64,000 bases of DNA from Nitrospirota bacterium (GTDB lineage: Bacteria; Nitrospirota; Thermodesulfovibrionia; Thermodesulfovibrionales; UBA1546). A program made the translations under genes and the position numbers. The stretch lies in the NCBI GenBank assembly GCA_016208915.1, contig JACQXE010000037.1, positions 4,905 through 68,904 of the forward strand. The letters are read 5' to 3'. How positions within the stretch are numbered: the first letter of the stretch is position 1; the number at the start of each line of letters is the position of its first letter. Below the pieces are notes generated by a model. That model was given only the letters and a program-made list of their open reading frames with translations, searched no databases and had not been told where the DNA came from. Of this stretch, positions 1,872 to 21,625 are shown piece after piece.

Positions 1872-2054
1872 AAGAAAGAAATTACCACTATAACAAATTG
1901 AAAGTCAAGGGAAGCATATACGGCGAAAAACTCAATATATATAAATTTTTGATTTAAAATTGAGTTGTCGATAAGATTTTAGTATGATATTATAAATTTT
2001 AAATTGGTTATGGAAACTGTCTTTGACAGAATGAATATGTAAGAAGGAGGTTTT

Positions 2055-3416
2055 ATGGGGAAAAAGGGAAGAGTTCTTACAATTGTTGCTATTTTTGTGA
2101 TAGCAGGTCTGTTCCTGTCCAATTCAACAGGGATTGCTCAGGCTGAAAAACCAAAAATAGCTCCTCCATGCAAGCAATGCCACCAGCCGAATGAAAAGAT
2201 ATTGCGAGGAACATTCGCAGGTGTTTCACAAAAGGCATGGACGATTCAAATTCAGATCGGTCCTGCAACATGGCTTGTGAAATGGGATGATGACACAGAA
2301 CTCATCGGTGCAGAAGGATTCAGCAAGATTCCAAAGGACAAAGAAATTGCCATAGCGATCGAAGAAAAAAACGGTATGCTCTATGCTAAAAGTTTATCTG
2401 TCAAGCCTCCGGCAAAAGTTCCTGCAGAGAAACTGATGAAGGCTGATGAACTTGCAAAGCTTGTTGAGATGGGCACTGAGAAAGGCAATTTCATGCTTGT
2501 AGATTCAAGGCCTGCATTGAGATATAACGAGAGTTTTATTCCGGGCGCGATTAATATTTATGATGCTGAATTTGATAAGAATATTGATAAGCTTCCAAAA
2601 GAAAAGAGCAAACTGCTCATATTCTATTGTGCAGGAGAGACCTGAAGACTGAGTCCATCCTCTGCCGGTAAGGCGGAGAAACTTGGTTACACCAATGTAA
2701 GAGTCTTTCACGAAGGCATGCCTGTATGGAAAAAGGCCGGCAATATAGTTCTTTCAACGCCACAGAATCTGAAAGAAAGTATTGAGAAGGATATCTCCAT
2801 GGTCCTGATCGATCTTAGGAAGGCGGGCGATGCTAAAAAGGAGCATATAAAGGGCGCTGTTTCAGTTTTGGCAGAAGGCATCAGCAAGGCAAAAGACAAG
2901 TTTCCTGCTGATAAAAAGGCGCCAATAGTTCTCTATGCAGGAGATACGAAATCAGCATTCGATTCATTCAAGAATGTAAGAGGATGGGGGTATACAAACA
3001 CATCTGTTCTTAGCGGTGGAATAGAGGCATGGAAAAATGCGGGAAATCCTGTTGAAGGCGGAGAGCTGAAGACAGACATAGTGTATGTGCCAAAGCCGAG
3101 GCCAGGTGAGATAACGGTTGAGGAATTCAAGAAGATCGCAGAGACACTTCCTTCAGACAAACTCATACTTGACGTGAAAGATGTGGATGAAGCAACAGAA
3201 GGTATGCTTGTAGGCGCGAAGAATATACCTACACAGGATATTCAGGCGAGACTATCCGAGATTCCTAAGGATAAGGAGATAATCGCTTACTGCAACACAG
3301 GCGTGAGGGCTGAGATGGCATATCACATTCTGAAGGATGCAGGATATAAGGCAAGATTTCTTAATGCTAATCTTAAGATTGACAAGAACGGGAAATATGA
3401 AATAAGCAAGGAATAG
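2055..3416 (+). CDS. secreted CxxCH (haem c motif) protein with three rhodanese-like domains; one in-frame TGA at 2643..2645 (candidate selenocysteine, otherwise a disrupted gene)
   Basis: Track ORFs 2055..2645 and 2718..3416 share one frame and are separated only by a single TGA. There is a signal-like N-terminus and a CKQCH motif. The TGA splits rhodanese domain 1 (..LLIFYCAGET-TGA-RLSPSSAGKAEKLGYTNVRVFHEGMPVWKKAG). Domain 3 has a CNTGVR loop. Confidence 0.6.
2655..2686 (+). promoter_or_regulatory. stem-loop just 3' of the in-frame UGA, compatible with a bacterial SECIS element
   Basis: A 7-bp upper stem 2660-2666/2672-2678 (CUCUGCC/GGCGGAG, one G-U pair) closes a GGUAA loop at 2667-2671. 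The loop begins 21 nt after the UGA. A possible lower stem is 2655-2657/2684-2686. Confidence 0.4.
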
Positions 3417-3474: not shown

Positions 3475-4132
3475 AATCCTCTTCAGACGCTGCTGGTTGT
3501 GGGGGCTTTGGGGTTGCAGGGGGTGCAACTGCCTTGAACTGGGGGGGGATATTAACTTTAGGTTGCTGTTGTGAAGGAACCTGAACCGCAGGTCCGGAAG
3601 GTTGATATAACCGCGGCATTGTGGGCATGGGAAGAGGAGTGGTTGTTACAGTTCCCGATTGCCTGAATCTTTGTGGAGGCGTAGTGTTTTTCATTCCTGG
3701 CTTGCTTCCACCGTATATGTCTATCTTAGATATTAGACCATCAGGTGTGTAGTAGAGAGTATAATCGTTTTCTTTTATGAGTGTGAGCAGTCGCCTTATG
3801 CCTTTCTCTATCTCAACATCTTTGAAAGTAGTGCTGATCTTTTTATGATTAACTTCAACAGATATTTCTGCCTGAAATCCGACCTTTTCTGCAATATTGT
3901 CTATCACATCTCCTATTTCTGCATCCAGTAGTTCAACGCTTAACATCCTGTCTTTGACATCTATGTTCATAATCGGCTTGGGCTCTTCGATTTCAGCCTC
4001 AACCTCTTCTACTTCCTCAGGAGTCTGGGCATACAGAGGAGAAAACAGCAGGAGTATGAATGCCGAAGCAAGAAAGACCTTACATGTTAATAAAATCCTT
4101 AAAAATGAAATTGCTGACGACATGTGTCTCAT
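3473..4132 (-). CDS. hypothetical secreted protein with a Pro/Gln-rich C-terminus
   Basis: 219-aa ORF with a hydrophobic signal-like N-terminus (..LLLFSPLYAQTPEE). Its start overlaps the stop of the upstream EF-G-like gene by 4 nt. I recognise no family. Confidence 0.55.
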   Translation of the reverse strand: MRHMSSAISFLRILLTCKVFLASAFILLLFSPLYAQTPEEVEEVEAEIEEPKPIMNIDVKDRMLSVELLDAEIGDVIDNIAEKVGFQAEISVEVNHKKISTTFKDVEIEKGIRRLLTLIKENDYTLYYTPDGLISKIDIYGGSKPGMKNTTPPQRFRQSGTVTTTPLPMPTMPRLYQPSGPAVQVPSQQQPKVNIPPQFKAVAPPATPKPPQPAASEED

Positions 4133-6228
4133 TTCTCTTCTGCCTTCTCCTTCTTATGGGCTGTTCTTTCAGCTATTATCTTCTGTGCATTGTGGCCGGG
4201 AACCTCTTCGTAGTGCGAGAATTCCATCGAGTATAACCCTCTTCCCGATGTAAGGCTGTGAAGCTGATTTGCGTATGTCAGCATCTCAGACATCGGAACC
4301 AAAGCGGTTATTTTCTGATTTCGTGCCTGTGATTCGACTCCTTGCACCTTGCCTCTCTTTGAGTTGAGGTCGCCTATCACTGCGCCGAGCGTCTCATCAG
4401 GCGTGGTCACCTCTGTTTTCATTATGGGCTCAAGGAGTATCGGTTTTGCATCCTCAACCGCCTTTTTAATGGCCATTGAACCTGCGATCTTGAAAGCCAT
4501 TTCAGATGAATCTACTGTATGGTATGAACCATCGTAGAGCGATACCCTTATATCGACCATAGGATATCCCGCAATTATGCCTTCATGCATTGCTTCAACA
4601 ATTCCTTTTTCGACTGCTGGGATGTATTGTCTTGGTATAGCTCCTCCCACGATCTTATCCACATACTCAAAGCCTTTGCCTCTTGGCAAGGGTTCTATTG
4701 TTATGTGACAATCTCCATATTGGCCCCTTCCGCCTGACTGTTTTTTGTATCTCCCCTGAGCTTTTGCAGGCGCTTTAATCGTCTCTCTGTATGGGATTTT
4801 CGGCGTCTTCATTACTACCTCAACGCCAAACTTTCTTTTTAATCTTTCGAGAGATACTTCAAGGTGCACCTGTCCCATGCCTGAAAGGATCATCTCTTTT
4901 GTCTCCTCGTCCCTGTGAAATTTGAGAGTTGGGTCTTCCTCAAGGATTCTATGGAGACCTGTACTTACTTTATCTTCATCTCCCTTTGTTTTTGGAGCGA
5001 TTGCATAAGATATTAGAGGCTCGGCAAATTTTGCCTTCTCAAAAACTATCGGATGTGTCTCATCACAGAGAGTGTCGCCTGTATTTGTCTCTTTAAGCTT
5101 TGCGACAACGCCTATCTCTCCGGCACCTATTGTATTTGTAGGTATCTGTTTCTTGCCGAGGAGATAGAATATCTGTCCTATCCTTTCCTTTGAACCGACT
5201 GTTGAATTAAGCACATTTGAGTCGGCTTTCAGACCGCCTGAATAGACCCTGAACAAAGACAGTTTTCCTGCATATGGGTCTGCTATTGTCTTGAATACAT
5301 AGGCGGAAAAAGGCTCCTTTCCGTCTGGTTTTCTCTGCACCTCTGTTCCGTCTTTCGGTTTTTTGCCTTTTATCGGGAAAATCCTTACAAGGTCTAAGGG
5401 AGAAGGCAGACAGAGAATTATAGTATCCAGAAGCTGGGGTATTCCTATATTTTTTGTTGCAGAGCCGCATGCAACCGGGATGAATTTTCTTGAAAGCGAT
5501 CCCTCTTTTATTCCCTTTATGATCTCATCCTGTGTCAGTTCACCGCCTTCGAGATATTTTTCGAGCAGTGAATCTTCTGATTCGGCAATCTTTTCTACGA
5601 GTTTTTTTCTGTATTCCTCTGCCTCGGAAACAAGGTCAGAAGGTATGTCTGATTCGGATGCCTTGCCTCCTGAAAATTTATATGCCTTCATATTCAGAAG
5701 GTTTACAATTCCCTCAAAATTTTCGCCTGCGCCTATCGGTATCTGCAAAGGAACTCCCTCTGCTCCAAATGATTTGCTGAGTTCTTCAAGCGCATTGACG
5801 AAATTAGCTGATTCTTTATCCATCTTGTTAATAAAGACTATTCTCGGTATTTCATATTCGCAGGCGTATTTCCAGACTTTCTCTGTTTCAGCCTTAACGC
5901 CGGATATGGCGCTTACTATCACAACTGCGCCGTCAACTGCCTTGAGACTCCCCCTTGTATCTTCGACAAAGTTTATAAATCCCGGAGTGTCTATAAGATT
6001 TAAGCGATAACCATTCCAATTGCAGAAAGCAAGGGCTGAAATAATGGTTATCTTTCTTGATATTTCCTCGGGTTCAGAATCTGTTGTAGTATTTCCCTCT
6101 TCAATGCTGCCAAGCCTGTCGATCGAGCCTGAATCAAAAAGCATAGCTTCAACCAGCGATGTCTTTCCCGCGCCTCCATGCGCAATAACAGCAACATTGC
6201 GAATCTTGTTAACATCAAAATTAGACAT
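4129..6228 (-). CDS. elongation factor G family GTPase (EF-G paralog; not in an str-operon context)
   Basis: 699 aa. G1 motif AHGGAGKTS, DTPGFINF, and full EF-G domain-like length and sequence. Confidence 0.9.
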   Translation of the reverse strand: MSNFDVNKIRNVAVIAHGGAGKTSLVEAMLFDSGSIDRLGSIEEGNTTTDSEPEEISRKITIISALAFCNWNGYRLNLIDTPGFINFVEDTRGSLKAVDGAVVIVSAISGVKAETEKVWKYACEYEIPRIVFINKMDKESANFVNALEELSKSFGAEGVPLQIPIGAGENFEGIVNLLNMKAYKFSGGKASESDIPSDLVSEAEEYRKKLVEKIAESEDSLLEKYLEGGELTQDEIIKGIKEGSLSRKFIPVACGSATKNIGIPQLLDTIILCLPSPLDLVRIFPIKGKKPKDGTEVQRKPDGKEPFSAYVFKTIADPYAGKLSLFRVYSGGLKADSNVLNSTVGSKERIGQIFYLLGKKQIPTNTIGAGEIGVVAKLKETNTGDTLCDETHPIVFEKAKFAEPLISYAIAPKTKGDEDKVSTGLHRILEEDPTLKFHRDEETKEMILSGMGQVHLEVSLERLKRKFGVEVVMKTPKIPYRETIKAPAKAQGRYKKQSGGRGQYGDCHITIEPLPRGKGFEYVDKIVGGAIPRQYIPAVEKGIVEAMHEGIIAGYPMVDIRVSLYDGSYHTVDSSEMAFKIAGSMAIKKAVEDAKPILLEPIMKTEVTTPDETLGAVIGDLNSKRGKVQGVESQARNQKITALVPMSEMLTYANQLHSLTSGRGLYSMEFSHYEEVPGHNAQKIIAERTAHKKEKAEEK

Positions 6229-6241: not shown

Positions 6242-6667
6242 CTATTCCAGTATTTCTTCTATAACAGGTTTTGACTCTGTTTTTTTAGAAGCAGTCATGC
6301 TCCAGATTTTTATGACTAAAAAAGCTATCAGGAATGCGCCAAAACCGAATATGGCTGATATTATATCGGGGTCCATGTCTTTGAACTGACTGCTGAACAC
6401 CTCTTTGCCTATTATTGCGCCTGTAATGAGCGCTAAGGCAGGTATGCCATAAACAATTATAGAACCGCTCAAATATGTATAGGTTTTTACGATTACTTTC
6501 ACCCTCTGCCCTACCTTTGCCTTTGCCTTGTTGATTGCCTCTATCTCCATTGACTGTTCATCAGGCTTGCAGGTGCCTGCTGTGCACCCCTCGCAGACAC
6601 TCTTCCTCGGCACGGAGACCTTAGCAATCATCCCTTCTATGCTTTTTACTACCCCTACCTCCTCCAT
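6242..6667 (-). CDS. RseC/MucC (SoxR-reducing system) family membrane protein
   Basis: 141 aa. N-terminal Cys cluster (CEGCTAGTC) followed by two TM helices, the typical RseC architecture. Confidence 0.65.
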   Translation of the reverse strand: MEEVGVVKSIEGMIAKVSVPRKSVCEGCTAGTCKPDEQSMEIEAINKAKAKVGQRVKVIVKTYTYLSGSIIVYGIPALALITGAIIGKEVFSSQFKDMDPDIISAIFGFGAFLIAFLVIKIWSMTASKKTESKPVIEEILE

Positions 6668-10792: not shown

Positions 10793-11347
10793 ATGGGAAT
10801 AGCTGAGAGTATGAAAGAGATTACAGAAAATATTATTACTTCCTATGAGGAAAGGGCAAAGGCACTTGGTGATTTGGTATCTGATACCCATGCAACCTTA
10901 AAAGGGTTTGCGCAAGACCGTGAAAAAATGGCTGGTGAGCAACGAGAAACTCTATCTAAATTTACAAAGGATTTGTCAAAGAGCGTAGGAAATATGCTTA
11001 AAGAGTTCAAGAAGGACCATGGACAGATGAGTGATGATCAAACAAAAAACTTAGCAGATTTTATTAAGAATCTGACTAATGATGTAGGTTCAATGTTAAA
11101 TAGGTTTCAAAAGGATCGTGACAAGATGTCAAAGGAACTTAAGAACAAACTCGCTAAAGAGGTAAAAGATATTGGAACCTATGTCAAGCAACTCCTAGGT
11201 GAATATAGCTCGGATATGAAGAAGGCGAAAGAGGCCTGGCAGGGTATGTCTAAGACACTGGCCGAAGAGGCGATTGAAGAAGTGGGCGAAGAAGAAGCAG
11301 TTAGAAAGCCCAAGAAGAAGAGAAAGAAAAGAGGAAAGAAGAAATAG
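10793..11347 (+). CDS. repeat protein with four tandem 33-residue repeats and a poly-Lys tail (GvpC-like by architecture)
   Basis: These segments align without gaps at a 33-aa period: LVSDTHATLKGFAQDREKMAGEQRETLSKFTKD / LSKSVGNMLKEFKKDHGQMSDDQTKNLADFIKN / LTNDVGSMLNRFQKDRDKMSKELKNKLAKEVKD / IGTYVKQLLGEYSSDMKKAKEAWQGMSKTLAEE. Confidence 0.65.
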   Translation: MGIAESMKEITENIITSYEERAKALGDLVSDTHATLKGFAQDREKMAGEQRETLSKFTKDLSKSVGNMLKEFKKDHGQMSDDQTKNLADFIKNLTNDVGSMLNRFQKDRDKMSKELKNKLAKEVKDIGTYVKQLLGEYSSDMKKAKEAWQGMSKTLAEEAIEEVGEEEAVRKPKKKRKKRGKKK

Positions 11348-11387
11348 GTTAAGTACTCTATCTAAGGAGAAAGGACGGTGAGACAAG

Positions 11388-12302
11388 ATGATTGATGAGA
11401 TGACTACGGTATTGGAGCCGAGTCCTCTGCCAGACTTTGTGGAGACAAAGTATATCAAGGATATCACTAAGAGGGCACTTGACTATATAAAGGCAGGTTT
11501 TCCAGTCCATTTTAGAGGGGTATCCGGTTCCGGCAAGACTACGTTGGCTATGCACATAGCAAGTAAGATTAAAAGGCCGATGGTAATGATTCATGGAGAT
11601 GAAGAATTCACAACCTCTGATCTTGTAGGTGGTGAATATGGTTACAGAATCAGAAAGGTTGTAGACAGATTTATCTCACGGGTATTAAAAACAGAAGAGG
11701 ATATGGTAAAGCGCTGGGTGGATAACCGTCTGACCGTTGCCTGTAAGTATGGATTTACCTTGATATATGATGAATTTACACGTTCAAGGCCAGAGGCAAA
11801 TAATATCCTTCTTTCTATTTTACAGGAGAAGATGATGGATTTGCCGGTAGGAAGAGGCGGTGAGGAACCATATTTAAGAGTAGATCCAAATTTTACTGCT
11901 ATTTTTACATCTAATCCTGAGGAATATGCCGGTGTCCACAGGAGCCAGGATGCCTTAAGGGACAGAATGATAACCATGGACTTAGACCACTTTGACTATG
12001 ATACAGAGGTCGCAATAACTCAGGCGAAATCTAAACTTTCTAAAAAGGATTCTGAGAAAATAGTGAATATTGTAAAAGGTTTAAGAGAATCCGGGAAGTG
12101 CGAGTTTGCTCCAACTATTCGCGGATGTATTATGATTGCAAAAACCCTTAAAGTTCAGGGTATCACTCCTACAAGTGCCAATGGCGCCTTTATGCCGATT
12201 TGCCAGGATATATTGGCCTCTGAGACGAGCAGGATTGGCTCAAAGACGAATCAGAGCAGGGTAAAAGAGACAGTTAAGGAGTTGGTTGAGAAGTATAGTT
12301 AG
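11388..12302 (+). CDS. gvpN: gas vesicle protein GvpN (AAA+ ATPase)
   Basis: 304 aa. Walker A GVSGSGKTT, Walker B LIYDEF, GvpN-like length, and position after gvpA and the C-like genes. Confidence 0.85.
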   Translation: MIDEMTTVLEPSPLPDFVETKYIKDITKRALDYIKAGFPVHFRGVSGSGKTTLAMHIASKIKRPMVMIHGDEEFTTSDLVGGEYGYRIRKVVDRFISRVLKTEEDMVKRWVDNRLTVACKYGFTLIYDEFTRSRPEANNILLSILQEKMMDLPVGRGGEEPYLRVDPNFTAIFTSNPEEYAGVHRSQDALRDRMITMDLDHFDYDTEVAITQAKSKLSKKDSEKIVNIVKGLRESGKCEFAPTIRGCIMIAKTLKVQGITPTSANGAFMPICQDILASETSRIGSKTNQSRVKETVKELVEKYS

Positions 12303-12390
12303 AAAGGAGAAGACAGAAAAAAATGGGTCTTTCGTTAAAAAATTGAAAATCATAAATGGCTGGATGAATGACGGAACTGCTATTAAAAGT

Positions 12391-12465
12391 GTCATTCCCC
12401 GACTTGATCGGGGAATCCAGAAAGCAAAGTTACTGGATTCCCGCTTAATGACTGCGGGAATGACG
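12391..12465. repeat. hairpin repeat element (REP/MITE-like, GTCAT...ATGAC family, 'attcccgc' subtype)
   Basis: gtcattccccgacttgatcggggaatccag...ctggattcccgcttaatgactgcgggaatgac: two hairpins between inverted GTCAT/ATGAC ends. Track ORF 12286..12507 is just its translation. Confidence 0.8.
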
Positions 12466-12503
12466 GAAAAGAGAGTATTTTCGTATGAAAGGAGGATTGT
12501 TAA

Positions 12504-12809
12504 ATGAAAGGAATGTTGCAGATACCCGGCATTAAAGATATAAAAAGTACACATTCTGTAGGTGCACGGTCTATTCCAAAGGTACAAAGGTCAAGTTATT
12601 TAGAATTATATATGCGTAGAAGAGAGAAGGATAGATTAGAGAAAGAAATCTTCGCGTTAGATAAAAGAAGAGACACAGCGAATAGGCAATTGAACAGCAT
12701 CAATAAGCAAATTGAAAAATTACAGAAAGAAGTGCACGAAGAGCAAAAGATTAATACTTATAGAGGGATACCTACAAGGCCGCTTAAGACAATGGCTATA
12801 AATTATTAA
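12504..12809 (+). CDS. small coiled-coil protein of unknown function within the gvp island
   Basis: 101 aa. SYLELYMRRREKDRLEKEIFALDKRRDTANRQLNSINKQIEKLQKE shows a heptad-like pattern. I recognise no family. Confidence 0.5.
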   Translation: MKGMLQIPGIKDIKSTHSVGARSIPKVQRSSYLELYMRRREKDRLEKEIFALDKRRDTANRQLNSINKQIEKLQKEVHEEQKINTYRGIPTRPLKTMAINY

Positions 12810-12933
12810 TGAATGTTTATGATAGGTAAGCATGGATTGGAAAACCTTTTGGAAAAGCCCAAAAGTCGCAATCTTTCATGTTTATGTACAGAGGCAAAGG
12901 CGTTATTGCAAAAGTGATGGAAAGGTACAAATT

Positions 12934-13004
12934 GTCATGCTGAATTTATTGCAGCATCTAATAATGTCAAGGGTTATGAGATCCTGAAACAAGTTCAGGA
13001 TGAC
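12934..13004. repeat. hairpin repeat element (GTCAT...ATGAC family, 'ctgaa..ttcag' subtype)
   Basis: gtcatgctgaatttattgcagcat...atcctgaaacaagttcaggatgac. Confidence 0.8.
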
Positions 13005-13048
13005 AAAAAGAGACTTTTTCAAGAGCTCGATTATAAAGGTTGATATCT

Positions 13049-13435
13049 ATGATTGGGGATAAAAAAGAAATAAAGAGAATAGAGAAATTAATTAAAAAGG
13101 CGCAGAGGTCTTTAAGATTATCGTCTTATAAAATTAGATGTAATCTTGTAAAGGCTGATTATTCAGAATATGCCGGGATAATTTGCCAACATCCAAAAAG
13201 AACAGCGACAATAGATTTTAATAGAAAAAGGATTCATCAGGAATTAGAAAATACTGTAATTCACGAATTACTGCATTTATTATTTAATAAACATCTGAGT
13301 GTTGCAGAGGATGTTTTTGAAAGACAGAGAAAATATAAAAGCTTACGGAAATATCAAAAAGGCGAAGAGAAAATAATCAATATTTTAGCGCCCTTGCTTG
13401 AGAAGGTAATTTTTGAAAATCAAAGGAGAAGGTAG
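13049..13435 (+). CDS. small HExxH-motif protein (putative Zn-metallopeptidase-like)
   Basis: The motif is VIHELLHLLF. The ORF ends 2 nt before the Hsp20 gene. I prefer ATG 13049 over the TTG at 13040. Confidence 0.5.
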   Translation: MIGDKKEIKRIEKLIKKAQRSLRLSSYKIRCNLVKADYSEYAGIICQHPKRTATIDFNRKRIHQELENTVIHELLHLLFNKHLSVAEDVFERQRKYKSLRKYQKGEEKIINILAPLLEKVIFENQRRR

Positions 13436-13437
13436 TC

Positions 13438-13977
13438 ATGGCAAAAGAAAAAAAGAAAAGGAAAGAGGAAGAAGAAGGATTGGATATTGATTTTGGCATA
13501 GGTAAATTGAGTCTGGGGGGGTTATTTAAAGGCATTGAGAATTTAGTTGACCTTGCCGCTAAGTTAAAAGAAGCAGGTGGTGAAATTAAGAAAGAAGGCG
13601 AGATTGACCTGAGCCGACTTAAAGAAGGCATGAAGGGGGTCTATGGTTTTTCAATAAAGACAGCAGTTGGCGGAAAACCGATGGTTGAGACATTTGGCAA
13701 TATCAAAAAGACACCTGAAGGACCTGTCGTAGAAGAAGAAAGAGAGCCCTTAACAGATGTGTTTGATGAGAAAGACGAAGTAGTGGTTATATCTGAAATT
13801 CCGGGAGTTCATGAGGAAGGTATATCGGTAGATTTAAAGGGGGACATACTGGAGATTTCAGCAGTGGGCAAAAGCAGAAAATATCGTAAAGAAGTCCTCC
13901 TGCCAGTGCAGGTCAAGAAGGAAACACTTTCTTATACATTTAAGAACGGTATCTTAGAAGTTAGAATTAAAAAGTGA
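13438..13977 (+). CDS. Hsp20/alpha-crystallin family small heat-shock protein with a Lys/Glu-rich N-terminal extension
   Basis: The C-terminal PLTDVFDEKDEVVVISEIPGVHEEGISVDLKGDILEISA...LPVQVKKETLSYTFKNGILEVRI matches an alpha-crystallin domain. Confidence 0.8.
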   Translation: MAKEKKKRKEEEEGLDIDFGIGKLSLGGLFKGIENLVDLAAKLKEAGGEIKKEGEIDLSRLKEGMKGVYGFSIKTAVGGKPMVETFGNIKKTPEGPVVEEEREPLTDVFDEKDEVVVISEIPGVHEEGISVDLKGDILEISAVGKSRKYRKEVLLPVQVKKETLSYTFKNGILEVRIKK

Positions 13978-13981
13978 AACG

Positions 13982-14082
13982 GTCATGCCGACAATTAGGC
14001 ACAAAGGGGAATGAAAAACTGTCATTCCCGCGCAGGCGGGAATCCAGAAAGACACTGGATTCCGTGTCAAGCACGGAATGAC
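13982..14082. repeat. compound hairpin repeat element (GTCAT...ATGAC family)
   Basis: gtcatgccgacaattaggcac... followed by gtcattcccgcgcaggcgggaatccagaaagacactggattccgtgtcaagcacggaatgac. Track ORF 14011..14223 translates it. Confidence 0.8.
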
Positions 14083-14098
14083 AAAATTTTGATAATAG

Positions 14099-15112
14099 GT
14101 GGATGGCATTATAAGCGGACTATTAGAGCCGTCATTGAAGCTGATTCTATTCGGCGGGAAGGGAGGTGTTGGGAAGACTACCTGCGCCGCAAGTGCAGGG
14201 CTTTATTTAGCAAACAACAATAAGAATACCTTGCTTATCTCCACTGACCCAGCACATTCTTTATCGGACAGTCTGGGCAAGGAGATTACGAATGAGATAA
14301 CGCAGATAAAAGGAGTAGATAAATTAAGTGCTATGGAGATAAGCGCGGAAAAGGCATTGTCAAGTTTCAAAGCAGAATATCAAGATGAACTGAAAAGACT
14401 CTTTGATACAAGCACTTATTTAGATAAGGAAGATATAGATTCCATACTTGAGCTGCCTATACCAGGCATAGACGAGGTAATGGGATTCAAGGTCATTGTG
14501 GATTTAATTGAAAAGGAAGAATTTGACAAATACGTAGTGGATACTGCGCCAACAGGCCATGCCCTGAGGCTTTTGACTCTGCCTGAACTCTTAGATGACT
14601 GGATAAAGGTTCTGGCAAAGATGAGATGGAAATACAGATATATGGTTACTACCTTTGCCGGTAAATACAGGCCTGACAGCGCTGATGATTTTCTTATGAG
14701 CATGAAAAAAACAGTCAAAAAAATTGAGGGGCTGCTGAAAGATGAGAACAGATGTGAATTCATAGTTGTCACGATCCCTGAGGATATGGCTATTAAAGAA
14801 ACAGAGAGGCTGATAAGAAATCTGAATCAATACGGGATGAAGGTGAAGCAGTTGATTATCAACAATGTTATTCCAGAGGGAGACAGGTGCAGTTTTTGTC
14901 AAGCGAGGAGAAAAGGCCAGGACAAATATATCAAAGAGATTAGAGATAAATTTAGCGATTTAAATATAACGGTTATTCCCCTTCAGCCCCACGAGGTAAA
15001 AGGGATAAATGCACTGAAAAACTTAGAAAGTATGATATTTAGCAAGAACGCACAATGTCACCCTGAACTTGATTCAGGGTCTAAAAGAGACGCTGAAACG
15101 AGCCTGCCCTGA
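14099..15112 (+). CDS. Get3/ArsA-family ATPase with a CxxC motif; the last ~20 codons are repeat-derived
   Basis: P-loop GGKGGVGKTT, STDPAHSLSD, DTAPTGHALRLL, and CSFCQARRKGQDKYIKEI...VIPLQPHEVKGINALKNL, which resembles the Get3 CxxC dimer-zinc region. The C-terminal HPELDSGSKRDAETSLP is the translated hairpin repeat. Confidence 0.8.
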   Translation: MDGIISGLLEPSLKLILFGGKGGVGKTTCAASAGLYLANNNKNTLLISTDPAHSLSDSLGKEITNEITQIKGVDKLSAMEISAEKALSSFKAEYQDELKRLFDTSTYLDKEDIDSILELPIPGIDEVMGFKVIVDLIEKEEFDKYVVDTAPTGHALRLLTLPELLDDWIKVLAKMRWKYRYMVTTFAGKYRPDSADDFLMSMKKTVKKIEGLLKDENRCEFIVVTIPEDMAIKETERLIRNLNQYGMKVKQLIINNVIPEGDRCSFCQARRKGQDKYIKEIRDKFSDLNITVIPLQPHEVKGINALKNLESMIFSKNAQCHPELDSGSKRDAETSLP

Positions 15113-15161
15113 AGAGATTCTGAACCAAGTTCAGAATGACACTTTCAGGGTTCAGCATGAC
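15057..15161. repeat. compound hairpin repeat element (GTCA...ATGAC family) spanning the Get3-like/Cdc48-like junction
   Basis: gtcaccctgaacttgattcagggt...gattctgaaccaagttcagaatgac...ttcagcatgac. Confidence 0.8.
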
Positions 15162-15180
15162 AATTGAGAGGTATTTTCGA

Positions 15181-17304
15181 ATGAATAATAATGAAAGTTT
15201 CATAACCTTAAAAGTAAAAGAGGCATTACCTAAAGATGTGGGAAGGGCGATAGTTAGAATAGACCCTGAGGATATGAAAAAATTGGGGGTTGAGGTAGGC
15301 GAGATTATAGAGATTAGCGGTAAAAGGCAAACACCAGCCAAGGTAATGCCCTGCTATGCCGAAGAAAGGAACAAAGGGATTATTCAGATAGATGGAATAA
15401 CAAGGGAAAATGCACAGATCGGGATAGATGAAAAGGTAAAGATTCAAAAAGTAAAAGCTAAGCCGGCAAGTAAGATTACATTAGTGCCTCTGAACATATC
15501 AGGTCTTATGAATAAGGATAAGGATATTAAGTATATCGGTTCATTGATCGGAGGGCTTCCACTGACTGTCGGCGATAGGATTAGAGCCAGTCTTTTTGGG
15601 GCAAGAGCCTGTGACTTCAAAGTAGTAGATACAATTCCTGATGGGGTTGTGCTTATCGAGCCCACAACTCTAATCAAGATAAAAGATAAAGGAACAAAAG
15701 ATATAAAAGAGACACGTATATCCTATGAGGATATAGGCGGACTCCACACTCAGATTCAGAGAATCAGAGAGATGATTGAACTCCCACTTAAATACCCTCA
15801 GATTTTTGAAAGATTGGGGATTGGCGCGCCCAAAGGGGTTTTTTTATACGGCCCTCCAGGCACTGGTAAGACTCTGATAGCACGGGCAGTAGCGAATGAG
15901 ACAGAGGCATATTTTACTCATATATCAGGACCTGAAATAATGGGCAAATTTTATGGTGAGAGTGAAGCCCGCTTAAGAAGTGTATTTGAAGATGCGCAAA
16001 AACATGCCCCTGCCATAATCTTTATTGATGAGATAGACGCCATTGCCCCTAAGAGAGAAGAGATGGGCGGAGAGAAGCAGGTTGAGCGGAGGGTTGTGGC
16101 TCAGCTCTTAGCACTGATGGATGGATTAGAATCAAGGGGTGAGGTTATAGTTATAGCTGCAACCAATATCCCTAATGTTATAGACCCGGCATTGAGGCGG
16201 CCGGGTAGATTTGATAGAGAAATTTCAATTCCTATACCCGACAGAAATAGCAGACTCGAGATACTCCAAATTCATACAAGGGGGATGCCCCTATCAGAAG
16301 ATGTAAGTCTTGAAAAGTTAGCCGATATTACCCATGGATTTGTTGGAGCAGACTTAGAGGCATTAGCCAGAGAAGCAGCGATGTCGGCTTTAAGAAAAAT
16401 TCTACCTGAGATCGATTTTGAGCTGGCAGATATTCCTTATGAAACACTCATGGAGCTTCAAGTGACTATGGATAATTTCTTAGAAGCCATGAAAGAGGTT
16501 GAACCATCAGCAATTAGAGAATTTTTTGTAGAGGTGCCTGATGTCAAATGGGAGGATGTGGGTGGTCTTGAGAATATTAAAGAGGAACTAAAGGAGGCAA
16601 TTGAATGGCCTCTTAAATATTCTGATATTTTTAAAAAGGCAGGCACAAATCCTCCTAAGGGAATTTTACTCTATGGAGTTCCTGGTACAGGTAAAACCCT
16701 TTTAGCCAAAGCAGTGGCTAATGAGAGTGGAGTGAATTTCATCTCAGTCAAAGGACCGAGTTTGATATCGAAGTATGTCGGCGAAAGTGAGCGTGGAATC
16801 CGTGAGGTCTTTAAAAAGGCAAAGCAGGCATCACCTACAATCCTATTTTTTGATGAGATAGACAGCCTTGTTCCCAAAAGGGGTTCAGGAGGCTCTGATT
16901 CTCAGGTAACAGAACGAGTGATAAGCCAATTCCTGACTGAGATGGATGGAATTGAAGAACTTAAGGGCGTGGTAGTTTTAGCCGCTACTAATAGATTAGA
17001 CCTGATTGACCCTGCTATCTTACGCAGCGGCAGATTTGACCTTTTGCTTGAGTTGCCTGTGCCTGATGAAAAAACGAGAGAAGAAATATTCAGAATACAT
17101 ACTGAAAATAAACCGCTGGCTGATGACGTTGATTTGAAAGAGTTAGCTAAAGAGACTGAAGGTAAGGTGGGCTCTGATATTGAGTTTATCTGTCGGAAGG
17201 CTTCTATGTTGGCGATAAGAGAGTTTATAGAGCACCGGCAAAATTTAAAGTTTTTGAGAAAGCATTTTCAAGATGCTATCAAGTTAATCCAAAGGGAGGT
17301 TTAA
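15181..17304 (+). CDS. Cdc48/VAT-type double AAA+ ATPase (N-domain + D1 + D2)
   Basis: Cdc48-N-like [42 protein letters not shown]. Two Walker A motifs, GPPGTGKTL and [12 protein letters not shown] 15181 with a GAGAGG SD is preferred, because the track start at 15136 lies inside the repeat. Confidence 0.9.
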
Positions 17305-17485
17305 AATAGCAAAGATTATTGAGAAGATTAAGAATTTCTTCAAAGGCAAAAAGAAAGAAGAGCCTAAAGCCCAACAGGAAAAACCTAAAACAGAAGAGAA
17401 GCCTGAAGAACAAAAATAGTAGAAAAGAATAAAAGGATCACTAAAAGGGGAGGGTGGATAATCCTCTCGATATAAATTTTTGATA

Positions 17486-18511
17486 ATGGCTGAAATAGAA
17501 GGTATATATATCTACGGTATTGTTGATACTGCAGGAGAGAAAAGTCTCGGCATTGCTGGAATCACTGCGTATGGAGAGGTCTATACAATTCCACATCAGG
17601 ATATTTCTGCGGTTGTAAGTGATTCACAATTTGTAGATTACACCGCTCTTTCTAAGGATCGAGTTGCAAGATATCTTCTTGCTCACCAGCAGGCAATAGA
17701 GAAGATTATGGATTCTCATACCATTATTCCTGTGAAGCTCGGCACTTATGCCTTTAATATCAGAGAGGTAGAGGAGATTTTATCAAAGGGATACACAATG
17801 TTTAAAGATGTATTCAGGACGATCAATAACAAGATTGAGATTGATGTGGTAGCAACATGGAACGATTTGAATTCAGTAATTAAAGAGATCGGCGAAGACG
17901 AAAAGATTAAAGAGCTTAAAGAAAAGCTGATGTCTAAGCCTGAAGGTATATCTCTTGAAGACCAAATGAAGATAGGCAGTCTCATTAAGGATATTTTATA
18001 TATAAAGAGAGAAAAACTTGCCTCTGAAATAGGGACTGTATTAAGAAAGGTGAGTATAGATTCAAGGGCACATGGTCTTATGGATGACAGGATGATCTTT
18101 AATGCCGCCCTTCTTATAGATAAGGATAAAAGGGCTGAATTAGAGAAAGGATTAGATGAGATGAATGGGTTGTACAATGAAAAAATAGATTTTAAATGTG
18201 TTGGCCCTTTACCTCCATATAGTTTTTACACTGTAGAGGTTAAGAAGATCCCTTTTGGTGAGATAGATTGGGCAAAAGAAAAATTGGGCATTGATAACAT
18301 ACCAACAAAGGAAGATATCATAAAAGCATACCGCAGCAAAGCCAACTTATATCATCCAGATAAGAACAGAGGCGCTTCGGATGCAGACAGGCAATTTAAT
18401 GAAGTATTCAGGGCGTACAAAATCCTCCTTGAATACTGTCAAGAAGAAACTTGTTCATTTGATGAAAAAGAGTTCGGTCAAGATGCCATCATTGTAAAGA
18501 TAAGAGATTAA
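17486..18511 (+). CDS. GvpF/GvpL family protein fused to a C-terminal J-domain (DnaJ-like, HPD motif)
   Basis: N-terminus IYIYGIVD...ISAVVSD...HQQAIEKIMDSHTIIPVKLGT...FNAALLIDK...GPLPPYSF matches GvpL/F. C-terminus TKEDIIKAYRSKANLYHPDKNRGASDADRQFNEVFRAYKILLEY is a J-domain. Confidence 0.85.
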   Translation: MAEIEGIYIYGIVDTAGEKSLGIAGITAYGEVYTIPHQDISAVVSDSQFVDYTALSKDRVARYLLAHQQAIEKIMDSHTIIPVKLGTYAFNIREVEEILSKGYTMFKDVFRTINNKIEIDVVATWNDLNSVIKEIGEDEKIKELKEKLMSKPEGISLEDQMKIGSLIKDILYIKREKLASEIGTVLRKVSIDSRAHGLMDDRMIFNAALLIDKDKRAELEKGLDEMNGLYNEKIDFKCVGPLPPYSFYTVEVKKIPFGEIDWAKEKLGIDNIPTKEDIIKAYRSKANLYHPDKNRGASDADRQFNEVFRAYKILLEYCQEETCSFDEKEFGQDAIIVKIRD

Positions 18512-18515
18512 TATT

Positions 18516-19280: not shown

Positions 19281-19283
19281 TTT

Positions 19284-19790
19284 ATGTTATCAGGGACAGA
19301 AGCAGATATTATAAATACTGTTGCCAGATTAAAAGAGGCAACCAAGGACCAACTAAGAAAAGAGGTAGGTTTTTCTTCAGATTATATTAGCTATTTATGT
19401 GGATATTTGGTCAGAAAAGGTTATCTAAATTTTTCTGATGGGCATTATTCTCTGGCAAGGATGGAAATAAAGACTTTGCGGAGAGAAGATACACAGATCG
19501 ACAGGGAGTTAATCAAAGAGATTGCCAATGAGGTTGCTGGAGAGCTCAGTGGTAAGTTAAGAAAAACAGTAAAAGAGATAAAAATACCGGTTGCACAGAT
19601 AAGGCAGAAAGCAAAACAGATACCAGAAGAAAAAATAAATCCCGATTTTGAATTTCCTGTAGAGGATGAAAGTTTAGCCTTAGAAAGTAATATCAATAAA
19701 ATAGGGCCAAACTTAGAAAAAGAGAAATCTAACATTGACAGGTTAGTGAAATTATTTAAAAAAATTCAAAAGAGATGGAGGAAAAGATGA
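19284..19790 (+). CDS. winged-helix (MarR/TrmB-like) N-terminal domain protein, putative regulator
   Basis: EADIINTVARLKEATKDQLRKEVGFSSDYISYLCGYLVRKGYL is wHTH-like. The C-terminal half is charged. Confidence 0.5.
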   Translation: MLSGTEADIINTVARLKEATKDQLRKEVGFSSDYISYLCGYLVRKGYLNFSDGHYSLARMEIKTLRREDTQIDRELIKEIANEVAGELSGKLRKTVKEIKIPVAQIRQKAKQIPEEKINPDFEFPVEDESLALESNINKIGPNLEKEKSNIDRLVKLFKKIQKRWRKR

Positions 19791-21623: not shown

Positions 21624-21625
21624 AG

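What the first reader, a model, noticed from the sequence alone, without database searches (positions are those of the whole stretch)
2055..3416. Candidate selenocysteine in a Cys-x4-Sec-Arg rhodanese active-site loop of a secreted CxxCH protein
Seen: one TGA (2643-2645) interrupts an otherwise continuous 453-codon frame. It falls inside rhodanese domain 1 at YCAGET-[TGA]-RLSPSSAGKAEKLGYTNVRVFHEGMPVWKKAG. The domain only makes sense if the codon is read through. The downstream ORF's ATG (2718) sits mid-domain with no spaced SD. From 17 nt after the UGA a 7-bp stem closes a GGUAA loop that begins 21 nt after the UGA. This fits published bacterial SECIS models (apical loop 16-37 nt from the UGA, with G in the first loop positions). 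Established: rhodanese-like selenoproteins have been predicted in bacteria, usually with Sec replacing the catalytic Cys. Here Sec would sit five residues after the Cys (a CX5R-length loop), which suggests a Cys-Sec redox pair. That arrangement looks unusual.
Basis: partly seen in the sequence, partly recalled or inferred. Interest (0 to 1): 0.65.

Follow-up and report, generated by a model that had tools for sequence, protein, structure and literature searches.

The report
Selenocysteine in a secreted triple-rhodanese protein
The in-frame TGA at 2643-2645 is almost certainly a real selenocysteine codon, with its recoding hairpin, in a secreted sulfur-transfer (rhodanese) protein found with the same TGA in at least 120 other bacterial species, so it is a genuine but not unprecedented selenoprotein that gene callers and the public protein sets I searched record as two split genes.

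Summary
ORF 2055-3416(+) has one in-frame TGA (codon 197) inside the first of three rhodanese domains, in the loop FYC192-AGET-U197.

Four lines of evidence show that it encodes selenocysteine:
- 95 of 99 long homologs have Cys at that column.
- At least 120 species genomes carry TGA at exactly this codon, mostly with ~200 open codons before and ~255 after.
- A hairpin 14 nt downstream meets all four criteria of the published bacterial SECIS model and covaries at synonymous sites (102/103 paired, five pair types).
- Amino-acid-matched Cys forms lack the hairpin (13/50 vs 112/119) and the loop G (8/50 vs 114/119).

TGA is an ordinary stop for 9 of 34 window genes. Two other assemblies carry the identical TGA.

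The Arg after Sec is not conserved, so this is not a CX5R site. CxxCH is present in only about two thirds of Sec forms.

The protein is most likely a periplasmic sulfane-sulfur carrier with a Cys/Sec relay. Relatives sit beside Psr-like reductases, multihaem cytochromes, YeeE/YedE transporters and a porin-like DUF3373 protein.

Rhodanese selenoproteins are already catalogued, one with a fitting UxxS motif. I file this as a new member of a known kind. Sec machinery could not be checked beyond the window.

The parts
2044..2050 (+). Shine-Dalgarno sequence AAGGAGG, 4 nt before the start codon ATG 2055
   Evidence: Read directly from the sequence.
2055..3416 (+). Complete selenoprotein gene: 453 codons plus TAG, with Sec at codon 197. 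Layout: signal peptide, N-terminal beta-rich domain, then three rhodanese domains.
   Evidence: Translation. Pfam PF00581 matched three times. Full-length homologs of 437-486 aa. AlphaFold2 model of the closest Cys homolog, P0001, has pLDDT 91 and pTM 0.80.
2055..2144 (+). Sec-type signal peptide, residues 1-30, with predicted cleavage AQA|EKP. There is no lipobox.
   Evidence: Sequence. Homologs have comparable N-termini. The model has low pLDDT and a single helix here.
2169..2183 (+). CKQCH haem-c attachment motif (C39, C42, H43) at the start of the N-terminal beta-rich domain (residues ~36-117)
   Evidence: Invariant in the 45 aligned close homologs. Present in only 75/112 Sec forms and 35/71 Cys forms overall. 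The window also encodes CcsB, a cytochrome c maturation protein, at 62905-63969.
2448..2738 (+). Rhodanese domain 1 (residues ~132-228). It carries the extended active-site loop C192-A-G-E-T-U197.
   Evidence: Pfam best stretch 132-228. It aligns to PDB BH2092 (3NHV/3O3W), YC-WGPA-C against YC-AGET-U. It scores below threshold against NF041203 (82 vs cutoff 115) and TsoB NF045694 (68 vs 805).
2628..2630 (+). TGT encoding Cys192, the canonical rhodanese catalytic cysteine at the end of the central beta-strand
   Evidence: Cys in 100 of 100 sequences that cover this column. It was required by the search pattern in all fetched loci.
2643..2645 (+). UGA encoding selenocysteine 197
   Evidence: Cys aligns here in 95 of 99 long homologs, and 20 protein clusters begin just after it. 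TGA sits at the same codon in L001 and L002 and in at least 120 species genomes. Two other assemblies are identical here.
2660..2678 (+). SECIS core hairpin: 7-bp stem (2660-2666 with 2672-2678) closing loop GGUAA (2667-2671). The loop starts 21 nt after the UGA.
   Evidence: -12.8 kcal/mol, z = -3.65. Family-wide core pairs: 20-34 (90/103), 21-33 (102/103, five pair types), 22-32 (103/103), 23-31 (103/103), 24-30 (99/103). G at loop position 2 in 115/120 Sec forms. All four core pairs 21-24/30-33 form in 113/120 Sec forms but only 15/118 Cys forms (amino-acid-matched comparison). It meets all four criteria of the bSECIS model quoted in PMC13188914.
2647..2688 (+). Possible lower SECIS stem (2647-2654 with 2681-2688) around the core hairpin. 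Support is weak.
   Evidence: Part of the MFE structure in the window. Only 64% of cells pair across the family, and RNAalifold does not predict it.
2763..3068 (+). Rhodanese domain 2 (residues ~237-338). It has no active-site Cys (LYAGDTKSA) and is presumably non-catalytic.
   Evidence: Pfam and PDB matches for residues 248-335. Sequence.
3111..3374 (+). Rhodanese domain 3 (residues ~353-440) with the canonical active site C413-NTG-V-R (TGC 3291-3293)
   Evidence: CxxGxR is present in 99/106 Sec forms and 64/68 Cys forms. C413 is invariant. Best PDB sequence match is the rhodanese domain of the FAD-dependent pyridine nucleotide-disulphide oxidoreductase 3NTA (E=1.4e-14).

Best explanation
The region 2055-3416(+) is one gene for a secreted selenoprotein of about 420 residues after signal-peptide cleavage.

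How the UGA is read: a SECIS hairpin at 2660-2678, 14 nt downstream, directs UGA 2643-2645 to be decoded as selenocysteine. By analogy with characterised bacterial SECIS elements, it would do so by recruiting SelB carrying Sec-tRNA(Sec).

What the protein is: a signal peptide, a small beta-rich N-terminal domain that here carries one CxxCH haem-c site, and three rhodanese domains. Rhd1 has an active-site loop two residues longer than canonical, holding the invariant rhodanese Cys192 and, five residues later, Sec197. Cys occupies that second position in most relatives. Rhd2 has no active-site Cys. Rhd3 has a canonical CxxGxR site.

What it most likely does (inferred): it acts in the periplasm as a carrier or activator of sulfane sulfur from polysulfide, elemental sulfur or thiosulfate. 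Sec197 would be the better nucleophile and leaving group, and it would exchange chalcogen-bound sulfur with Cys192 through Se-S or persulfide intermediates. The sulfur would then pass to Rhd3 or to respiratory enzymes.

Shown: the gene structure, the Sec/Cys pairing, conservation of the TGA, and a SECIS found only in Sec forms. Inferred: SelB dependence, periplasmic location, the Cys/Sec relay chemistry, and the sulfur substrates.
For: Recoding
- There is a single in-frame TGA inside rhodanese domain 1.
- 95 of 99 long homologs have Cys at that column, and 20 protein clusters start directly after it.
- L001 and L002 show TGA at the same codon, flanked by two adjacent 'genes'.
- In 103 distinct sequences the synonymous-site pair 21-33 is CG 54, UA 27, UG 16, GU 3, GC 2, with one broken pair. 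Sliding the pairing partner drops paired cells from 73% to 29-43%.
- Loop position 2 is G in 115 of 120 Sec forms.
- In amino-acid-matched sets, both synonymous pairs form in 112/119 Sec forms against 13/50 Cys forms. The loop G is present in 114/119 against 8/50. Residue +8 is confined to R/G/S in Sec forms only.
- The hairpin meets all four bSECIS model criteria: 5-nt loop, 7-bp stem, G in the first two loop positions, 21-nt spacing and MFE -12.8 kcal/mol.
- TGA terminates 9 of 34 other window genes.
- Assemblies from two other sequencing runs are 100% identical across the TGA.
- Only 20 of 103 sequences have a start-capable codon right after the TGA.

Function
- Three PF00581 domains, with Rhd3 carrying CxxGxR.
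- The nearest solved folds are multi-rhodanese sulfurtransferases: 1YT8, 6MXV, EanB and YnjE.
- Across 243 loci, subsets lie next to Psr-like molybdopterin oxidoreductase plus NrfD (22 loci), YeeE/YedE sulfur-transport pairs (10-12 loci), the porin-like DUF3373 (17 loci) and a sigma-54/PAS regulator (39 loci).
- In L248 the gene order is DUF3373, a 107-aa protein, this rhodanese, a multihaem cytochrome, then PsrABC-like genes. L246 is similar for the first three genes.
- By their record titles, hosts are mostly sulfur-cycling anaerobes: Thermodesulfovibrio, Dissulfurispiraceae, Desulfocapsa, Desulfurivibrio, Caldimicrobium, Desulfopila.
Against: - No selA, selB, selD or tRNA-Sec lies in the 64-kb window. 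Sec competence of this particular genome is therefore not shown.
- The window's own neighbours give no functional hint. They are a class I aminoacyl-tRNA synthetase, an unknown 219-aa protein, EF-G, an RseC-like protein and an AAA_14 ATPase, and none is conserved next to homologs.
- The associations with sulfur genes hold for minorities of loci, mostly Cys forms.
- I could not obtain model coordinates, so the proximity of Cys192 to Sec197, and of either to the haem site, was not measured.
- There is no experimental evidence for Se incorporation or for any activity in this family.
- The lower SECIS stem is poorly conserved.
Confidence: 0.8

Rival explanations
1. The TGA is a true stop. The locus would then be a pseudogene or sequencing error, or two separate genes: a 196-aa N-terminal product and a C-terminal product restarted at or after the stop.
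For: Gene callers annotate two ORFs here and in homologs. In 20 of 103 sequences an ATG or GTG directly follows the TGA, which could allow coupled re-initiation. No Sec machinery was seen in the window.
Against: The break would cut a rhodanese domain inside its active-site loop. The TGA sits at the identical codon in at least 120 species, with both halves kept open. In 83 of 103 sequences no start-capable codon follows it; in the window the next start, ATG 2718, has AGG only 1 nt upstream. Cys aligns with the TGA in 95 of 99 long homologs. A covarying hairpin appears only in the TGA forms. Independent assemblies are identical here.
Confidence: 0.03
2. UGA is read through, but not as selenocysteine. 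It could be read by near-cognate Trp or Cys insertion, or through a reassigned genetic code.
For: Sec machinery was not found in the window. The column is Cys in relatives, so Cys insertion would also give a functional protein.
Against: TGA ends 9 of 34 ordinary genes in the window, so there is no code reassignment. The conserved hairpin has the spacing, loop size and G[G/U] loop signature of SelB-dependent SECIS elements, and it is missing from Cys forms. By their record titles many carriers are Thermodesulfobacteriota (former Deltaproteobacteria) and Nitrospirota, and some Deltaproteobacteria are documented to encode many selenoproteins (PMC1794560).
Confidence: 0.03
3. The gene encodes Sec, but the protein handles selenium or tellurium rather than sulfur. 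It would bind or reduce selenite-derived selenium as a perselenide or selenotrisulfide, for uptake or detoxification.
For: Some homologs sit next to a porin-like DUF3373 protein and a ~107-aa protein. That trio resembles ExtI, ExtJ and ExtH of Geobacter sulfurreducens, where ExtI is needed for selenite and tellurite reduction and ExtH is a 49-kDa rhodanese-like lipoprotein (PMC5877670 and PMC6148476). PMC5877670 also cites work on a selenium-substituted rhodanese as a possible selenium delivery protein.
Against: Homology of the DUF3373 and 107-aa proteins to ExtI and ExtJ, and of this family to ExtH, was not tested. The window protein has no lipobox and none of these neighbours. The neighbouring selenoprotein of the ext cluster, ExtKL (MccSep), is now reported to be a polysulfide reductase essential for sulfur respiration (PMC13510729). 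Other neighbours (Psr-like reductases, YeeE/YedE) point to sulfur.
Confidence: 0.12

Closest known systems
[quoted passage not shown]
   Same: Both are PF00581 proteins with one Sec. The window has U-R-L-S and the family has U-x-[LM]-[S/T/A], which fits UxxS. Cys-form relatives of the window protein are abundant in Geobacteraceae and Desulfuromonadales.
   Different: I could not obtain the representative sequence, so identity of the families is unproven. Forms 2 and 4 (UxxG) put Sec at the canonical catalytic Cys position. Here that Cys is kept and Sec lies five residues later.
TsoB, a rhodanese/DsbD fusion-like selenoprotein (NCBIfam NF045694, motif UxxxxU) and the 'LYCAU' rhodanese (seleno)protein (NF041203, motif CxU)
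   Same: Rhd1 (residues 116-243) matches both models (68 and 82 bits). The listed TsoB motif UxxxxU has the same four-residue spacing as C-x4-U here. LYCAU likewise keeps the Cys and adds a nearby Sec.
   Different: Both scores are far below the curated cutoffs (805 and 115). The window protein has no DsbD fusion and one Sec rather than two. The spacing is Cx4U, not CxU. I did not see a residue-level alignment to either model.
BH2092 of Bacillus halodurans (PDB 3NHV, 3O3W), a single-domain rhodanese of unknown function
   Same: It has the same extended loop and register: ITYC-WGPA-C-NGATKAAAKFAQLGF aligns with IFYC-AGET-U-RLSPSSAGKAEKLGY (E=2.4e-7). This gives a solved Cys-form template for the Cys/Sec site.
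   Different: It is a Cys form. As solved it is a 126-144-residue chain, and the match covers only a single rhodanese domain, with no haem domain. No function is assigned.
Periplasmic or exported rhodaneses that serve sulfur respiration: Sud of Wolinella succinogenes, three-domain YnjE of E. coli, and ExtH (GSU2940) of the extHIJKL cluster of G. sulfurreducens
   Same: All are exported rhodanese-domain proteins. YnjE is a structural match with several rhodanese domains. The sizes are comparable (453 residues here; ExtH is given as 49.0 kDa). Homologs here are associated with a porin-like protein, a small protein, multihaem cytochromes and Psr-like reductases (PMC6148476). The role of Sud as polysulfide carrier for Psr is from my own knowledge.
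   Different: None of these is reported as a selenoprotein in what I read. ExtH is a lipoprotein, whereas this family has ordinary signal peptides. The gene order differs from extH-I-J. Sequence homology to ExtH and Sud was not tested.
MccSep (ExtKL), a pentahaem cytochrome c selenoprotein and polysulfide reductase (PMC13510729, 2026)
   Same: It is a periplasmic protein combining haem c, a cysteine and a selenocysteine, and it acts on polysulfide.
   Different: It has a different fold (multihaem cytochrome against rhodanese) and five haems against at most one. In MccSep the Cys ligates the haem and Sec is shown to be catalytic. Here any link between haem and Sec is speculation, and a third of Sec forms lack CxxCH.

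Membership tests
Bacterial selenoprotein gene (UGA-Sec plus bSECIS) | An in-frame UGA inside an ORF that is conserved and stays open on both sides | tested here: met
   The window has 196 codons from the start (200 open) before the TGA and 256 after it, and the TGA lies inside rhodanese domain 1. The same holds in about 120 other loci.
Bacterial selenoprotein gene (UGA-Sec plus bSECIS) | Homologs have Cys aligned with the UGA (a Sec/Cys pair) | tested here: met
   95 of 99 long homologs have Cys at that column. The exceptions have R (three) or S (one).
Bacterial selenoprotein gene (UGA-Sec plus bSECIS) | Orthologs in other organisms carry UGA at the same codon | tested here: met
   L001 and L002. 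At least 120 species genomes across Nitrospirota, Thermodesulfobacteriota, SAR324 and Rokubacteria, including cultured isolates.
Bacterial selenoprotein gene (UGA-Sec plus bSECIS) | A downstream hairpin that meets the bSECIS model: 3-9 nt loop, 4-16 bp stem, G in the first two loop positions, 16-37 nt from the UGA to the loop, and MFE <= -7.5 kcal/mol (criteria quoted in PMC13188914) | tested here: met
   5-nt loop GGUAA, 7-bp stem, 21-nt spacing, -12.8 kcal/mol. The hairpin covaries and is found only in Sec forms. bSECISearch itself was not run.
Bacterial selenoprotein gene (UGA-Sec plus bSECIS) | selA, selB, selD and tRNA-Sec are present in the same genome | not testable with these tools
   None was found in the 64-kb window: ARAGORN found no tRNA, Rfam gave no hit, and no SelA, SelB or SelD appeared in the NCBIfam/Pfam scans of ~67 ORFs. 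The rest of the genome is not available.
Bacterial selenoprotein gene (UGA-Sec plus bSECIS) | Selenium is demonstrably incorporated at the UGA | not testable with these tools
   This needs 75Se labelling or MS of the peptide LLIFYCAGETUR.
Rhodanese homology domain (PF00581) | A significant match to the domain model, with an active-site Cys following the central beta-strand | tested here: met
   147 bits against a cutoff of 22.2, in three stretches. C192 and C413 are invariant. Rhd2 has no Cys.
   R follows U in the window, but codon +1 across 103 Sec forms encodes R, G, V, T, A, Q, M, P and S. In Cys forms it is R, S, A, M, N, T or others.
NF041203 rhodanese_LYCAU (seleno)protein | Score at or above the curated cutoff (115 bits), and the CxU motif | tested here: not met
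   82.1 bits. The motif here is C-x4-U.
NF045694 selenoprotein TsoB (rhodanese/DsbD fusion-like, UxxxxU) | Score at or above the cutoff (805 bits), a DsbD-like fusion, and two Sec residues | tested here: not met
   67.9 bits, covering only profile positions 34-167. The window protein has one Sec and no DsbD part. No double-TGA variant exists in the 248 fetched loci.
[quoted passage not shown] | The UxxS motif in a PF00581 protein | tested here: met
   U197-R-L-S200. The family consensus is U-x-[LM]-[S/T/A]-P.
[quoted passage not shown] | Sequence homology to the representative, with Sec at the aligned position | not testable with these tools
   The accession could not be retrieved. It appears only in two reviews.
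ExtH-type rhodanese of ext clusters (G. sulfurreducens GSU2940) | A lipoprotein signal, adjacency to ExtI porin and ExtJ, and sequence homology to ExtH | tested here: inconclusive
   The window protein and the homologs checked have no lipobox. The window has no such neighbours. Geobacteraceae-type Cys homologs do follow DUF3373 and a 107-aa gene. Homology to ExtH, ExtI and ExtJ was not tested.

The most novel reading that the evidence does not exclude
In the CxxCH-bearing members, such as this one, the single haem c of the N-terminal domain may pack against the Rhd1 loop. Cys192 or Sec197 could then act as a haem ligand or as an immediate redox partner. That would make the protein a mono-haem seleno-rhodanese that reduces or oxidises sulfane sulfur itself (polysulfide, thiosulfate or S0) rather than merely carrying it. 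It would be a rhodanese-fold counterpart of the His/Cys-haem plus Sec chemistry just described for the polysulfide reductase MccSep, and of the Cys-ligated haem of TsdA cited in the same paper. It would also be a sixth, uncatalogued rhodanese selenoprotein form.
Probability: 0.1. Interest if true: 0.75.

Novelty: new member of a known kind. Interest (0 to 1): 0.4.

Why it matters
1. Annotation. At least 120 species genomes carry this TGA. In every example I checked, gene callers split the gene into two ORFs, and no full-length Sec form appeared among the best 120 protein hits. No NCBIfam model reached its cutoff. The pattern and SECIS alignment produced here would allow systematic re-annotation.

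2. Biochemistry. Sec replaces the second cysteine of an extended C-x4-C rhodanese loop, not the canonical catalytic cysteine. This marks the second position as the chemically demanding one. It points to a two-chalcogen (Se-S/persulfide) relay in exported rhodaneses of sulfur-reducing and sulfur-disproportionating bacteria, whose periplasmic sulfur chemistry is still poorly resolved.

3. Timing. A haem/Cys/Sec polysulfide reductase (MccSep) was reported in 2026 from the same kind of gene neighbourhood. A seleno-rhodanese partner is therefore a concrete hypothesis that can be tested in cultured carriers.

Tried and rejected
Searches and tools that gave nothing
- Rfam (gathering thresholds) and ARAGORN on the window gave no hits. 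This is uninformative, since no Rfam family matched this hairpin at its gathering threshold.
- A search for other selenoprotein genes in the window (TGA flanked by long open frames) found none convincing.
- A search for SelA, SelB and SelD among ~67 window ORFs found none. The neighbouring GTPase is EF-G, not SelB.
- A search of all loci for a TsoB-like double-TGA loop gave only noise.

Attempts to link the family to the catalogued 'form 1' or to ExtH
- A second homolog search seeded with the Geobacteraceae member P0108 returned only unnamed or MAG Cys forms.
- A cluster look-up gave no G. sulfurreducens entry.
- A literature search for WP_010941598 returned only the two reviews.
- The Haft & Tolstoy 2025 paper is not held.

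Structure
I modelled the closest Cys homolog, P0001, instead.
- Model coordinates are not exposed, so the Cys-Sec and haem-loop distances could not be measured.
- The afdb50 fold library was unavailable.

Ideas rejected on evidence
- Conserved neighbours of the window gene: none. All flanking genes are unique to this locus.
- RseC/MucC as a conserved partner: seen only in the window and L001.
- A CX5R phosphatase or arsenate-reductase-like site: the Arg is not conserved.
- The lower SECIS stem (2647-2654 with 2681-2688): not supported across the family.
Full report
**Observation**

The frame from ATG 2055 to TAG 3414-3416 on the + strand is open for 453 codons, apart from one TGA at 2643-2645 (codon 197). 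ORF listing splits it into 2055-2645 (196 aa) and 2718-3416 (232 aa). With the TGA read through, Pfam finds three rhodanese domains (PF00581, 147 bits). The first covers residues 132-228, so it spans the TGA. A strong Shine-Dalgarno sequence (AAGGAGG, 2044-2050) precedes ATG 2055. The N-terminus is a signal peptide (cleavage AQA|E) followed by CKQCH. No other TGA in the window is flanked by comparably long open frames. The core alone folds at -12.8 kcal/mol, z = -3.65, with 0 of 200 shuffles as stable. The 63 nt from the UGA fold at -18.1 kcal/mol, z = -1.86.

**Is the TGA a selenocysteine codon?**

*Sec/Cys pairing.* A search with the read-through protein returned 777 homologs, of which 120 were listed. 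Of 99 long hits, 95 have Cys in the TGA column, within FYCxGxT-C-x-[LM]-SP. Three have R and one has S. The first Cys (C192) is present in all 100 sequences that cover it. Twenty clusters of 255-258 aa begin directly after the TGA column (M-LSPSSA...). This is the signature of genes that a gene caller has split at the same stop.

*Conservation of the TGA.* Two of those split genes, L001 and L002, have an upstream rhodanese 'gene' that ends in TGA directly before the called start. I then scanned one genome per GTDB species with a 46-bit degenerate pattern that requires the TGA in its protein context. The pattern is expected zero times by chance in the window. In nearly all hits the frame stays open for about 190-270 codons before the TGA and about 250 after it. 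By their record titles the hosts include:
- Nitrospirota: Thermodesulfovibrio, Dissulfurispiraceae.
- Thermodesulfobacteriota: Desulfocapsa, Desulfopila, Desulforhopalus, Desulfurivibrionaceae, Desulfarculaceae, Desulfomonilaceae, Caldimicrobium, Pelovirga.
- SAR324 and Rokubacteria.
- Cultured isolates: Desulfocarbo indianensis, Desulfosediminicola flagellatus, and Desulfopila and Desulforhopalus strains, plus strain NaphS2.

*SECIS.* I aligned 103 distinct 66-nt segments starting at the TGA, without gaps (alignment A1). RNAalifold predicts a core hairpin at columns 21-24 with 30-33. Counting on the window's own structure gives these results:

| Pair | Result |
|---|---|
| 22-32 | paired in 103/103 |
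| 23-31 | paired in 103/103 |
| 24-30 | paired in 99/103 |
| 20-34 | paired in 90/103 |
| 21-33 | CG 54, UA 27, UG 16, GU 3, GC 2, one broken |

Pair 21-33 joins the third positions of the Ser/Ala codon +6 and the Ala codon +10. Its variation is therefore compensatory change at synonymous sites. Sliding the 3' partners by 1-3 columns lowers paired cells from 73% to 29-43%, and the covariation score from 0.20 to 0.03-0.12. Loop position 2 is G in 115 of 120 sequences, and position 3 is U or G in 118 of 120. This matches the G[G|U] signature of the published bacterial SECIS model. That model requires a 3-9 nt loop, a 4-16 bp stem, G in the first two loop positions, 16-37 nt from the UGA to the loop, and MFE <= -7.5 kcal/mol (PMC13188914). 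The window element has 5 nt, 7 bp, GG, 21 nt and -12.8 kcal/mol. The lower stem of the window's MFE fold is not conserved (64% of cells paired).

*Control with Cys forms.* The same pattern with TGY in place of TGA, scanned over metagenome contigs, gave 118 distinct Cys-form segments.

| Measure | Sec forms | Cys forms |
|---|---|---|
| All four core pairs 21-24/30-33 formed | 113/120 | 15/118 |
| Loop G present | 115/120 | 23/118 |
| Matched set: both synonymous pairs formed | 112/119 | 13/50 |
| Matched set: loop G present | 114/119 | 8/50 |

The matched set contains only sequences that encode the same residues at the paired codons ([S/A]+6, A+7, A+10). In Sec forms residue +8 is confined to R, G or S, whose codons have G in second position. 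Cys forms use A, K, T, D, E and others there. The hairpin is thus specific to TGA forms and even shapes the protein sequence.

*Rivals for the recoding.*
- TGA is the ordinary stop of 9 of 34 window genes, so the code is not reassigned.
- Contigs assembled from two other sequencing runs (L003, L004) are 100% identical to the window across the TGA.
- Only 20 of 103 Sec forms have ATG or GTG right after the TGA, so coupled re-initiation cannot explain the family.
- A break here would cut the active-site loop of a domain.

I put the probability that this UGA encodes Sec at about 0.95. The missing piece is the machinery. No tRNA-Sec, SelA, SelB or SelD lies in the window, and the neighbouring GTPase is EF-G. 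The rest of the genome is not available to me.

**What the protein is**

The layout is a signal peptide, an N-terminal beta-rich domain of about 80 residues, and then Rhd1, Rhd2 and Rhd3.
- The AlphaFold2 model of the closest Cys homolog, P0001 (64-65% identical), is confident, with pLDDT 91 and pTM 0.80.
- Its best solved-structure matches are multi-rhodanese sulfurtransferases: 1YT8, 6MXV, EanB and the three-domain YnjE.
- Rhd3 has a canonical CxxGxR site, present in 99/106 Sec forms and 64/68 Cys forms. It resembles the rhodanese domains of FAD-dependent disulphide oxidoreductases and CoA-disulfide/persulfide reductases (3NTA, 3ICR, 8A56).
- Rhd2 has no cysteine.
- The Rhd1 loop is two residues longer than CxxGxRS. 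It aligns in register with BH2092 (PDB 3NHV/3O3W), YC-WGPA-C against YC-AGET-U.
- The residue after Sec varies, so 'Cys-x4-Sec-Arg' is not a conserved CX5R site.
- CxxCH occurs in 75/112 Sec forms and 35/71 Cys forms, so haem is an optional accessory. The window encodes CcsB for cytochrome c maturation.
- The same C-x4-U loop also occurs in single-domain (L040) and two-domain (L043, L096) secreted rhodaneses.
- Sec and Cys forms mostly form separate clades, with some mixing. Three mixed clusters remain at 70% identity, and the closest Sec-Cys pair is 81% identical. This suggests several interconversions. The window's nearest relatives (61-74% identical) are all Sec forms.

**Likely function**

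The window's own neighbours say nothing. They are a divergent class I aminoacyl-tRNA synthetase, a convergent unknown 219-aa protein, EF-G, an RseC-like protein and an AAA_14 ATPase, and none recurs next to homologs. Across 243 loci, subsets do show recurring partners:
- a sigma-54/PAS activator, in 39 loci;
- a Psr-like molybdopterin oxidoreductase with NrfD, in 22 loci, mostly Cys forms;
- split YeeE/YedE sulfur-transport proteins, in 10-12 loci;
- a porin-like DUF3373 protein, in 17 loci, and a 107-aa secreted protein, in 13 loci.

In one contig of 3.69 Mb whose protein is 68% identical to the Geobacteraceae member P0108, the order is DUF3373, the 107-aa gene, this rhodanese, a multihaem cytochrome, PsrABC-like genes, TatA, MoeA and more multihaem cytochromes.

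The trio of rhodanese, porin and small protein recalls ExtH, ExtI and ExtJ of G. sulfurreducens (PMC5877670, PMC6148476). Their neighbour ExtKL (MccSep) has just been shown to be a haem/Cys/Sec polysulfide reductase essential for sulfur respiration (PMC13510729). I did not test homology to ExtH, ExtI or ExtJ. This family has ordinary signal peptides rather than lipoboxes.

My best-supported reading is therefore a periplasmic sulfane-sulfur carrier or activator. Sec197 would act as nucleophile and leaving group, and Cys192 would form a Se-S/persulfide relay with it. This is inference. The fact that Sec replaces the second Cys, never the first, argues that the second position does the demanding chemistry. 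A role in selenium or tellurium handling is the main functional rival.

**Comparison with what is known**

Rhodanese-type selenoproteins have been predicted since 2005. The 2026 catalogue lists five forms: UxxS (form 1), UxxG (forms 2 and 4), CxU (LYCAU, NF041203) and UxxxxU (TsoB, NF045694). The window protein fits the UxxS motif, but I could not retrieve the representative sequence. It scores below threshold for NF041203 (82 vs 115) and for TsoB (68 vs 805). No NCBIfam model reached its cutoff. In every example I checked, gene callers split the gene into two ORFs.

**Verdict**

This is a real selenoprotein gene with a well-supported SECIS element. It is a new member of a known kind and probably belongs to the catalogued UxxS form. 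It is widespread and under-annotated. Its Sec position is mechanistically informative, but its biochemistry is untested.

Noticed in passing
window 10793-24753 (+): A gas-vesicle gene cluster: GvpN (11388-12302), Hsp20 (13438-13977), an ArsA/GET3-like ATPase (14099-15112), a CDC48-type AAA ATPase (15136-17304), a GvpL/F-DnaJ fusion (17480-18511), GvpF (18516-19280 and 20802-21623) and GvpL (22125-23033). It also contains a protein matching Pfam 'Volactin' (19775-20881, 314 bits). The actin-like member of the cluster is unexpected.
   Followed up: partly
window 32152-33553: A REP-associated tyrosine transposase-like gene (32152-32823, -; 79 bits vs cutoff 80) abuts an integron-integrase-like ORF (32822-33553, +; 259.5 bits vs cutoff 265; it matches only the C-terminal two thirds of the model). 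Both lie between glyS (29494-31587) and glyQ (33614-34489). This looks like a mobile-element insertion that splits the glyQS pair.
   Followed up: no
L040 (Desulfurivibrio sp. D14AmB), L043, L096, L117: The same FYC-x4-TGA loop occurs in much smaller secreted rhodaneses: one domain of about 150 residues, or two domains of about 280 residues. The C-x4-U site is therefore a module used in several architectures. These may be separate, unannotated selenoprotein families.
   Followed up: partly
alignment A1 (66 nt from the TGA, 103 sequences): The base after the UGA is never U (G 57, A 36, C 10). Residue +8 is restricted to R/G/S in Sec forms, because its second codon base is the conserved SECIS loop G. 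This is a clear case of an RNA signal constraining protein sequence.
   Followed up: yes
window 4129-6228 (-) and 6242-6667 (-): An EF-G gene (986 bits to the EF-G subfamily model, and 668 bits to the EF-G2 model, below that model's cutoff of 890) lies next to an RseC/MucC-like gene. An RseC_MucC gene also lies just downstream of the Sec-form rhodanese in L001. It is not conserved elsewhere.
   Followed up: partly
window 44014-47298 (-), 55451-56533 (-): A Type ISP restriction-modification enzyme (N6_Mtase plus Type_ISP_C) and a separate D12-class adenine methyltransferase.
   Followed up: no
P0038-P0105 (256-aa clusters); L001 and L002 gene calls: In the protein collection I searched and in the contig gene calls, Sec forms of this family appear as two adjacent 'rhodanese' genes (about 190-196 aa plus 256 aa). 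Among the best 120 hits there was no full-length entry with U.
   Followed up: yes
L248 4404-5057 and L246 5472-6315: In the two Geobacteraceae-type loci (L246, L248), the cassette of DUF3373, the 107-aa gene and the rhodanese is preceded by a C_GCAxxG_C_C protein and a YgaP-like TM protein. In L248 a single-domain rhodanese also precedes it, and multihaem cytochromes plus a PsrABC-like set follow it. This looks like a larger sulfur-handling island.
   Followed up: partly
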